Shown: positions 19,617 through 21,739 of the stretch, piece by piece | Numbering within the stretch: the stretch's first letter is position 1 | Layout: each line of letters begins with the position of its first letter | NCBI RefSeq assembly: GCF_964204865.1 | Contig: NC_135253.1 | Span: 4,526,001 to 4,590,000 of the forward strand | DNA length: 64,000 bases | DNA from: Styela clava | Taxonomy: Eukaryota | Reading direction: 5' to 3' | Notes under the pieces: model-generated | The model's input: the letters and a program-made list of their open reading frames with translations, nothing else | The model's database searches: none | Told to the model about the DNA's origin: nothing | Made by a program: the position numbers and the translations under genes

Positions 19617-21739
19617 TTATTCAAGATCTTTGTCAAATTCAGTTGCTTGGATCATTCCGTCGTTATCAGCATCGAGTTTCTGGAATTCCTGCTTCATAAG
19701 ATCGTCAAGATCTCTGCTTTGTTCCAAGTCTTGTTCGTGTTGCTCAGTAACGACATCAAGAAGGGCCAATACATCTTCTTCGTTGTTGGAGTCCAATAAA
19801 TGAGAAGCAACTAATTGACCGGATTCGTTGTCCTGGTGATATAAAATGTAAAGTGCTGTTATGGAGAACAAATTTGCGCTAATTACTCGATAGTGAGTTA
19901 TGCCTTACTACCGATATAACACACTAGAGACGTACCGATACTACTTTTGTCGCCGATACCAACAGAAAAACGCCAATATTTCGAAAAGTCGATATTCCGT
20001 AACTATGTAATTATAACTTTAGGGGTGCAGGGCGGACGGGTTGTAACAATAGTCTTTAAGCATTATTTATACTGCACATTATTTCAGCTTGAAATAGAAA
20101 TATTTCAGATAAGATGAGAAATCGAAGTTTGTGATACAGATGCATAAATTGATTCGGATGCATTGTGCACCGACGTTCGTAAACTAGAGACTCAATTAGA
20201 AAACTAATTTTGTGCAAATATAACGTTGTATTTTACACATTGGAAAATATTCGATTGATATATTTCTTCATAATTACCATGTCATATTAAAATGTCCGTT
20301 TGAAAAGTTGGCAGCAAAAATAGCCAAATTAGTTGAGAGTTAACGAGGCGATTAATTTCAACATCCGTATTTCAACCTATTTTCGAAGCATTCTGGATCA
20401 CATTGAAAAGCTAAATATATAGGAAATAGCGGTATACATTTAGCTGATACCGAGAAATAGCCGATATTCCCGATAACCATACATTGGTACATCTCTACAA
20501 CAAACACGCTCCTATACTCCATTTCACCAAGTTTTTGCCGAGTTGGGCAATTAAGATTTCTGTGGTAAATAAAGAACTTAATCGGTTGATGTACAGTACA
20601 GTGTTCTGTTTGTATATATATCTCACCAGCAATCTTGCAGTCATTGCTTCACGAAACTCAGATTGCGATATGATTCCGTCTTCATTTTCATCAAGTTCGT
20701 TAAACACGTCCCAGGTATTTTTCAGATCCTCCTGATTTTTTTGTTGAAGCCGCTCGTCTCCCAATTCCAGTTTACAAGAGAATTTTTTGCTCAAAATCCA
20801 ACCAGCTGAATCCAGATGAGAAAGAATAAAAAAAGGAAAAAAAATCATTACAGTTGCATGAAACCCAACGATTTTACATATAATTACCAGTAACTTCACC
20901 GGTCATCACAGGTCTACACAGTGTACGGTTATGGAGTTCATCATAAAAACGAACGAACATTGCTCAAATATATGGACAGTAAGCGAATGACGTTAGGAAT
21001 AAAGACGCTTCCGGCTGAAATTAACCTATTCGAAACAATAGTCTGGCCATTTATTGTACAAGTGGCATCAATTTAATCAATAAGGCATTTCATTCGTTCC
21101 ATGTGACGGCAATTTTAGTGGGCAGGCAAACAGGACTCATCGCATGGTTATCAAGTACCGGTAATTTCTATAATTTGAATCTTGAACAATATCAAATACT
21201 CACAGAGGAATTTAATCGATGCACGCCCAGTTCTACATAATCCACAGTCACAGCACACTATGTTGCATCCCTTTCCGTTTCCACTACCGGAACCACAGCA
21301 CTTCCTGCGGTTCCATATGCTAACTTTAGCGCAGTCTTTGCAGAAGCCTGTGAAAATAACGTGAAACACTATGGAACCTTTTTCAATCCTGGAACATATT
21401 TCATTTGTAATGGGATTAACTTGTTACAAGAACATTTGTAGATAACTCAAGACAATATCACAAGTCCTTTTTTGAAAGTGGAATTACTACTTAATCGAAT
21501 CCTGAATTGGGATTCCCAAATAGAACAAAAATAAATATATATATATATATTTAATATTCGAATATCAAAAAAAAAACACTAGAAAGAATAACTAATGTAC
21601 ACCATTTGAACCAGCATATCATGCGTCTACGAATATAATTTTCACACTCACCGTTTTGTCCACGACCACAGCAAATTGCCGAAATTTCCGCTACGGCAAA
21701 AAGCAGGAGTATAGCAATAATACCTAAAAGATTATTCAT
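19617..21739 (-). CDS. Secreted Cys-rich (Diedel-like) + EF-hand protein, copy D (208 aa, intact)
   Basis: Exons 21652-21739, 21204-21347 (GFCKDCAKVSIWNRRKCCGSGSGNGKGCNIVCCDCGLCRTGRASIKFL), 20627-20805 (DENEDGIISQSE), 19617-19832 (DADNDGMIQATE). GT-AG and in frame. Confidence 0.9.
19925..20497. mobile_element. Ac-type hAT MITE in intron 3 of copy D (same insertion as in copy B)
   Basis: TAGAGACG...CATCTCTA termini, preceded by TAACACAC; colinear with 5296-5883. Confidence 0.75.

What the first reader, a model, noticed from the sequence alone, without database searches (positions are those of the whole stretch)
19617..21739. Cationic Cys domain plus strongly anionic EF-hand tail: possible Ca2+-gated pro-peptide design
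Seen in copy D: the segment ICC...IKFL has 10 K/R versus 2 D, while exon 4 has 22 D/E versus 4 K/R. A conserved dibasic KK (L[H/S]KK[Y/F]SCK) lies between them in all five copies. Established: several antimicrobial peptide precursors, including ascidian styelins and clavanins, have an anionic C-terminal piece next to a cationic mature peptide. Inference: the acidic EF-hand half masks a cationic effector until Ca2+ binding (secretory granule, haemolymph or seawater) or proteolysis releases it. The two EF-hands are separated by an unusually long (~60 aa) acidic linker.
Basis: partly seen in the sequence, partly recalled or inferred. Interest (0 to 1): 0.7.

Follow-up and report, generated by a model that had tools for sequence, protein, structure and literature searches.

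The report
Sea-squirt relatives of mussel antifungal mytimycin
This is one of about twenty sea-squirt genes for a predicted secreted protein with a positively charged, 12-cysteine front and an acidic, predicted calcium-binding tail; it is very likely a relative of mytimycin, an antifungal peptide thought to exist only in mussels, and so likely a defence protein, but it lacks the mussel cutting site.

Summary
The gene is real: four exons, 208 aa, identical to a Styela clava RefSeq protein, with two of three introns spliced in RNA-type contigs. The charge counts are exact. The design is not new. Signal peptide, cationic 12-Cys domain and anionic two-EF-hand tail is the layout of mussel mytimycin precursors, and the cysteine order equals mytimycin's type III array (compared by eye). 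Scored homologues occur in the brachiopod Lingula, although mytimycins are published as restricted to Mytilida; those homologues weakly match Pfam Diedel. None of the 17 has a furin-type site after the last Cys, whereas 35 of 39 mussel precursors have a basic run there. The 'acidic linker' is a conserved, predicted two-helix insert in one EF-hand pair. Best reading: an expanded mytimycin-family defence precursor whose Ca2+-loaded acidic tail likely acts as a pro-domain. Processing, activity and Ca2+ gating are untested. New variant of a known kind; interest 0.5.

The parts
21652..21739 (-). Copy D exon 1: predicted signal peptide (residues 1-21, 21739-21677) and the N-terminal CC of the Cys domain
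   Evidence: matches RefSeq P0005; intron 1 not covered by the RNA-type contigs laid
21204..21347 (-). Copy D exon 2: nine Cys of the mytimycin-type core, with invariant C57-N58 (21264) of the C-N-[ILVA]-[FLV]-C-C motif
   Evidence: splice joint 20805/21204 in X1 and X2
20627..20805 (-). Copy D exon 3: end of the Cys domain, variable linker (89-105) and EF-hand 1
   Evidence: joints on both sides
20783..20788 (-). KK84-85: inside the Cys domain, unlikely to be the processing site
20774..20776 (-). Cys88, the invariant 12th cysteine; a K/R lies within the next four residues in 17 of 17 gene models
20657..20692 (-). EF-hand loop 1 (residues 116-127)
19617..19832 (-). Copy D exon 4: helical insert, EF-hand 2 and stop
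   Evidence: joint in X1 and X3
19704..19832 (-). About 40-residue insert (138-180) between the EF-hands, predicted as two amphipathic helices; absent from Lingula and mussel relatives
19638..19673 (-). EF-hand loop 2 (residues 191-202)
1298..2487 (-). Paralogue A, exons 1-3 (exon 4 lies just left of the window)
4981..9073 (-). Paralogue B (exon-2 donor reads AT in this assembly)
13338..14915 (-). Paralogue C
26605..29359 (-). Paralogue E (97% identical to A)

Best explanation
The gene belongs to an expanded sea-squirt family that is very likely of the mytimycin kind, encoding a predicted secreted precursor whose cationic 12-cysteine domain likely acts as an antimicrobial (probably antifungal) effector and whose acidic EF-hand pair likely binds calcium and serves as a pro-domain. 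Shown: gene structure, splicing of introns 2 and 3, family size, invariant cysteines, charge split, homology to Lingula proteins. Inferred: the signal peptide is cut after Ala21; the 12 Cys form six disulfides, Cys88 included; EF1 and EF2 pair into one lobe that fills with Ca2+ in the secretory pathway; the -25 tail offsets the +10 domain during folding and storage. Also inferred: if the effector is freed, the cut falls after Cys88, at a single basic residue or elsewhere in the poorly conserved linker 89-105, giving about 7.3 kDa. It would not fall at KK and would not use a furin-type site.
For: Cys order CC-C-C-CC-C-CC-C-C-C in 15 of 15 family proteins tabulated equals mytimycin type III (Table 1 of PMC8004829); CC-x7-C-x-D-C and C-N-I-F-C-C-x-C recur in its supplement (by eye). 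Same layout with two EF-hands ending in EFD near the C-terminus. A profile of 14 family proteins found six short signal-Cys-EF proteins among the best 150 hits (E 3e-13 to 3e-7), three named Lingula anatina. With EF-hands removed, five of six beat all 500 cysteine-fixed shuffles and the sixth was equalled by 1 of 500; the reverse test passed for 6 of 6. hhalign probability 99.9% over the whole proteins. Lingula P0134 is nearly the Perna mytimycin core by eye. Cys domain net +5 to +12 and tail -19 to -27 in 17 of 17 models. Tandem expansion with broken copies, and faster protein change in the Cys domain (dN/dS 0.57-0.61) than in the tail (0.25-0.27), as in mussel defence families. Linker 89-105 is the least conserved segment (0.22 identity).
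Against: No R-x-[KR]-R after Cys12 in 17 of 17 models, and no dibasic pair in that linker in the eight KK-clade copies, D included; 35 of 39 mussel precursors have a KR/RR-ending run there (by eye). Two others (Mphi_2, Mphi_3) also lack it, one has RK only, one has no tail. No score against an actual mytimycin was computed. Three Cys-domain loops are longer than in type III (10, 9 and 20 residues versus about 5, 4 and 4). dN/dS is below 1 everywhere and the pairs are not independent. Three of six outside homologues have a net acidic Cys domain, so cationicity is not a family constant. The conserved helical insert suggests that the tail has a job of its own. No tissue, peptide or activity data. 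The Cys domain was not modelled reliably (pLDDT under 50).
Confidence: 0.55

Rival explanations
1. Same ancestry, but the protein stays whole: the Cys knot binds a receptor, matrix or microbial surface through its exposed Asn-hydrophobic loop, as proposed for Drosophila Diedel, and the Ca2+-filled tail with its insert is a permanent second domain.
For: No furin-type site in 17 of 17; Lingula P0044 and unnamed P0053 also lack a dibasic linker. Insert hydrophobic positions are invariant. All six outside homologues hit Pfam Diedel at E 0.0008-0.04; Asn58 is invariant, like Diedel's Asn77 loop (PMC3307722). Diedel is a secreted cytokine and integrin ligand (abstract of PMC9116668).
Against: The Diedel hits are under Pfam's cut-off (21.3 bits) and 0 of 10 family proteins scanned hit Diedel. 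The closest architecture, mytimycin, is processed. The strong charge split in 17 of 17 fits a pro-domain.
Confidence: 0.27
2. One reading: cleavage at KK84-85 or a Ca2+-triggered unmasking releases the cationic domain.
For: KK in all five window copies, dibasic KK/KR in 10 of 17 models; both EF loops canonical; opposite charges.
Against: Cys88 follows KK; 7 of 17 models lack a dibasic there; the KK copies form one clade; the motif aligns inside the Cys domain of P0044. From general knowledge, secretory compartments, haemolymph and seawater are all Ca2+-rich, so canonical EF-hands would be filled throughout, leaving no obvious step to gate.
Confidence: 0.08
3. A non-immune extracellular protein (tunic, mucus, adhesion or reproduction) that reuses the Cys-EF module.
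For: No tissue data were obtained; rapid duplication and divergence also mark reproductive and matrix proteins (general knowledge).
Against: Both characterised relatives (mytimycin, Diedel) are infection-linked.
Confidence: 0.1

Closest known systems
Mytimycin precursors of Mytilida (type III array; PMC8004829)
   Same: Signal peptide, Cys domain starting x-C-C, 12-Cys order CC-C-C-CC-C-CC-C-C-C, C-x-D-C and C-N-I-F-C-C-x-C motifs, cationic front, anionic tail with two EF-hands, multigene family with broken copies.
   Different: No basic processing run after the last Cys; three longer loops in the Cys domain; about 40 extra helical residues between the EF-hands (63 versus about 23 residues loop to loop); 208 versus about 152 aa; four coding exons versus three exons reported; chordate host; activity unknown.
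Uncharacterised Lingula anatina proteins XP_013417171, XP_013390178, XP_013393532 (P0044, P0108, P0134)
   Same: Signal-Cys-EF-EF layout; P0044 is 34% identical over 148 columns, shares the W-x-x-x-KK-[YF]-x-C strand and has no dibasic linker.
   Different: Type II-like Cys array, no insert between EF-hands; P0108 and P0134 carry KR after the last Cys.
Drosophila Diedel (Pfam PF13164)
   Same: N-terminal CC tethered to a C-x(4)-C-N-I-F-x-C-x-C loop; secreted; linked through the outside homologues.
   Different: No EF-hand tail, 10 Cys, ferredoxin-like subdomain; the Styela proteins do not hit the Pfam model.
Styelins and clavanins of Styela clava
   Same: Same species, cationic defence peptides; an anionic pro-piece is recalled, not seen in the passages read.
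   Different: Linear helical peptides of 23-32 residues, no disulfide array and no EF-hand.

Membership tests
Mytimycin family | Signal peptide followed by x-C-C | tested here: met
   Hydrophobic N-terminus (peak 2.7-3.4) and small residues before x-C-C in 17 of 17; hydropathy only, no dedicated predictor
Mytimycin family | One of five Cys arrays with a 10-Cys backbone | tested here: met
   Order equals type III; loop lengths differ
Mytimycin family | Scored sequence similarity to a named mytimycin | tested here: inconclusive
   No mytimycin was held as a stored protein; scored link to Lingula proteins, by-eye link from these to mytimycins
Mytimycin family | Cationic mature domain | tested here: met
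   +5 to +12 in 17 of 17
Mytimycin family | Anionic C-terminal extension with EF-hands | tested here: met
Mytimycin family | Dibasic/furin-type site after the last Cys | tested here: not met
   R-x-[KR]-R in 0 of 17; KR in 2 of 17; none in D. Hence filed as a variant, not a plain member; 2 of 39 published mytimycins with a tail lack it too
Mytimycin family | Antifungal activity, haemocyte expression, release of the mature peptide | not testable with these tools
   RNA-type runs carry no tissue label
Mytimycin family | Shared intron positions | not tested
   Mussel gene cells are cut in the supplement as served; only '3 exons, 2 introns' seen
Diedel (PF13164) | Pfam match over the cut-off | tested here: not met
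   0 of 10 family proteins; six outside homologues 14.9-20.2 bits, cut-off 21.3
Diedel (PF13164) | SD2 disulfide-knot fold | tested here: inconclusive
   Cys domain pLDDT under 50; fold rows cover 97-208 only
EF-hand pair | Two canonical 12-residue loops with flanking helices pairing into one lobe | tested here: met
   Loops in 17 of 17; best VIA match 2pmy_B Z 7.7, rmsd 2.6, 69 aligned of 72 (Z under 8 is middling). Ca2+ binding itself not measured
Styelin/clavanin precursors | Short linear helical mature peptide without disulfides | tested here: not met
   12 invariant Cys versus review passages

The most novel reading that the evidence does not exclude
Mytimycin, Diedel and this family are one ancient, unnamed immune superfamily of CC...CNIFxCxC knots spread over molluscs, brachiopods, insects and chordates. 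The ascidian branch has turned the disposable EF-hand pro-piece into a permanent, insert-bearing Ca2+-dependent mask, so the effector is switched without being cut.
Probability: 0.12. Interest if true: 0.78.

Novelty: new variant of a known kind. Interest (0 to 1): 0.5.

Why it matters
Mytimycins were reported as restricted to Mytilida, with the EF-hand tail gained in mussels and its role unknown (PMC8004829). Relatives with the same tail in a brachiopod and a chordate would make the design far older and add a Cys-rich family to the ascidian defence set, known mainly for linear peptides. Natural versions with and without the cutting site make the role of the EF-hand tail directly testable, and the weak link to Diedel offers a fold hypothesis for mytimycin, whose structure was unsolved in 2021.

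Tried and rejected
Single-sequence AlphaFold2 gave an unusable model (pLDDT 42); the 14-sequence model resolved only the tail. Foldseek found nothing at E<=0.001; Diedel was not listed in either fold search, which says nothing, as the Cys domain was poorly modelled. Complex prediction of Cys domain with tail plus Ca gave no answer (score 0.01, alignment not used). ESM Atlas gave no usable hit for the Cys domain; for P0134 it gave a mollusc-dominated and a nematode-dominated EF-hand cluster (0.96, 0.94), leads not followed. PDB sequence searches: one chance hit with the exon-2 profile, only EF-hand proteins in the best 60 with A3. No relatives in phages or metagenome contigs. Pfam Diedel found nothing in G000 or in the controls, which is uninformative. 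No RNA holder is listed on record as RNA; intron 1 and exon 1 had no cover in the three RNA-type runs laid. The Wnt hit on exon 1 (E 0.03) was rejected as noise. No kappa-B-like site by my pattern in 800 bp upstream of five copies. Earlier findings: none. Literature: 0 papers for 'mytimycin-like', mytimycin+Diedel or six RefSeq identifiers; listings for searches showed no title on this family. The library lacks most subscription papers, so prior mention is not excluded.

Full report
Observation. The finding covers a four-exon gene on the minus strand (21739-21652, 21347-21204, 20805-20627, 19832-19617) with GT-AG introns and an open 208-codon frame. The product is identical to stored protein P0005, RefSeq XP_039247737.2, 'uncharacterized protein LOC120325698' of Styela clava. 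Contigs of three runs guessed to be RNA, from two studies, skip intron 2 (X1, X2) and intron 3 (X1, X3) at the predicted ends, while the fourth run laid (X7) covers all 30 bins and shows neither joint. Four of twelve listed runs were laid; intron 1 was not covered. The contrast between the Cys domain (+10) and the tail (-25) is reached by 0 of 5000 shuffles.

Family. Exon 2 matches 20 places and exon 4 matches 21 places in G000, on three contigs (lower bounds). Of 20 loci examined, 17 gave whole reading frames (copy B needs an AT donor); three did not (a frameshift in exon 3, a stop in exon 2 with exons missing, a copy with altered exon 4 and no exon 1 found), and a lone exon 4 carries a stop. 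All 17 have 12 Cys, a Cys domain of +5 to +12, a tail of -19 to -27 and two EF loops of canonical pattern. The five window copies are four types plus a duplicate: the block c4g-c4h-c4i-A recurs as B-C-D-E at 97-99% coding identity. Pooled dN/dS among close copies is 0.57-0.61 for the Cys domain and 0.25-0.27 for the tail; pairs are not independent and no region exceeds 1.

The KK site. KK84-85 is followed by Cys88, invariant in all 14 rows of alignment A2. A cut at KK leaves 11 Cys in residues 22-83; in a secreted protein with an even Cys count the tail would likely stay disulfide-linked (inference). KK occurs in 8 of 17 models, KR in two more, no dibasic in seven. The eight lie on one side of one branch (98/98), so 'all five copies' is one inherited state. 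The Lingula homologue P0044 has KK-Y-A-C-K-C at the same place, inside its Cys domain. After Cys12, 17 of 17 have a K or R within four residues but none has R-x-[KR]-R; D has no dibasic pair there.

The linker. The EF loops are 63 residues apart in D (62-70 in the family). The AlphaFold2 model from 14 sequences has helices at 142-150 and 155-170 with block pLDDT 77-79, falling to 63 at 171-180. Positions 145, 146, 149, 150, 158, 161, 162, 179 and 183 are hydrophobic in 13 of 13 rows (the frameshifted row P0017 left out). The best structural match aligns 69 residues spread over 99-208 to a 72-residue EF-hand pair (2pmy_B, Z 7.7, rmsd 2.6). So EF1 and EF2 likely form one lobe with a folded insert of about 40 residues, which the outside homologues lack.

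Relatives. Word-based searches gave only Styela-named proteins and one unnamed close relative, P0023. A full HMMER scan with A2 gave 1075 proteins at E<=0.001; among the 150 listed, most match the EF-hands only, but six short proteins match from the signal peptide through EF1. Three are named Lingula anatina, three are unnamed. With EF-hands removed, the Styela Cys profile scores them at 25-50 bits: above all 500 full shuffles in 6 of 6 and above all 500 cysteine-fixed shuffles in 5 of 6; the reverse test passes in 6 of 6. All six hit Pfam Diedel below its cut-off, and 0 of 10 family proteins do.

Known system. PMC8004829 (main text parts 1, 2, 3, 5 of 5; supplement parts 1, 8, 9 of 9; figures, including the alignment and disulfide figures, not seen) describes mytimycin precursors: 23-residue signal, 54-residue mature peptide with 12 Cys, a dibasic site and an anionic EF-hand extension of unknown role, and concludes that they are restricted to Mytilida. 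Its type III array, CC-C-C-CC-C-CC-C-C-C, is the order in Styela. By eye, the supplement's sequences share CC-x(6-7)-C-x-D-C and C-N-I-F-[CG]-C-x-C, and Lingula P0134 is nearly the Perna core. In type III the last Cys precedes the basic run, which puts Styela Cys88, and so KK, inside the mature part. Of 39 precursors in File S4, 35 have a KR/RR-ending run after the last Cys, one RK only, two none, one no tail (by eye). No score against a mytimycin itself was computed. Mytimycin was isolated as a 6.2-kDa peptide that inhibits Neurospora and Fusarium (PMC3210125 passages). Diedel's conserved subdomain ties an N-terminal CC to a loop with an exposed Asn-Ile-Phe (PMC3307722 passages and section 6); it acts as a cytokine and integrin ligand (PMC9116668 abstract). 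Styelins and clavanins are linear helical peptides (PMC10608444 and PMC5198042 passages). PMC3039611 passages added six disulfides for mytimycin.

Mechanism. Most likely (0.55): a mytimycin-type defence precursor, secreted, with a six-disulfide cationic effector and a Ca2+-loaded acidic lobe that offsets its charge in storage, any release falling after Cys88. Ancestry shared with mytimycin I put at about 0.9; activity and processing are the uncertain steps. The main rival (0.27) is an uncut two-domain binding protein in the manner of Diedel, favoured by the missing furin-type site and the conserved insert.

Verdict. Observation confirmed; interpretation partly supported. New variant of a known kind: a mytimycin-like family outside mussels, without the mussel cutting site and with a helical insert in the EF-hand pair. 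The searches named under Tried and rejected found no paper on it. Interest 0.5.

Noticed in passing
window 6483-6482 (minus strand): The donor after exon 2 of copy B reads AT instead of GT; RefSeq P0007 still splices there. Allele, assembly error or a damaged copy.
   Followed up: partly
G000:C4 about 4499600-4555400 (window 1-29400 and the stretch to its left): A four-gene block recurs in tandem at 97-99% coding identity (intron 3 of D 97% to c4i); a recent duplication or an uncollapsed haplotype. RefSeq LOC120325699 'isoforms' mix exons of neighbouring copies.
   Followed up: partly
window 31346-32983 (+): hAT-family transposase frame (Pfam Dimer_Tnp_hAT) inserted about 1.5 kb upstream of copy E; both ends match a second place at G000:C4:4475258-4478111.
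   Followed up: partly
window about 33400-36300: A further copy of the family's upstream DNA with no coding exons beside it.
   Followed up: partly
L004:7078-7293, L001:6927-7884, L012:3734-3800, L009:4772-6540: Broken family members: lone exon 4 with a stop, copy with a stop in exon 2, copy with a frameshift in exon 3, copy with altered exon 4.
   Followed up: partly
window 37556-38044 (-) and 47253-47615 (+): Exons matching Pfam Vps5 (sorting nexin BAR) and eIF3 subunit d: ordinary neighbours.
   Followed up: no
window 45496-45953, 43240-43475, 17989-18161: Inverted repeats with arms of 141, 81 and 43 bases, probably MITE-like elements; intron 3 of D also holds high-copy repeat pieces.
   Followed up: no
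P0134 look-up: ESM Atlas clusters of mollusc-dominated (144 aa) and nematode-dominated (209 aa) EF-hand proteins resemble the Lingula homologue; the family may extend to nematodes.
   Followed up: no
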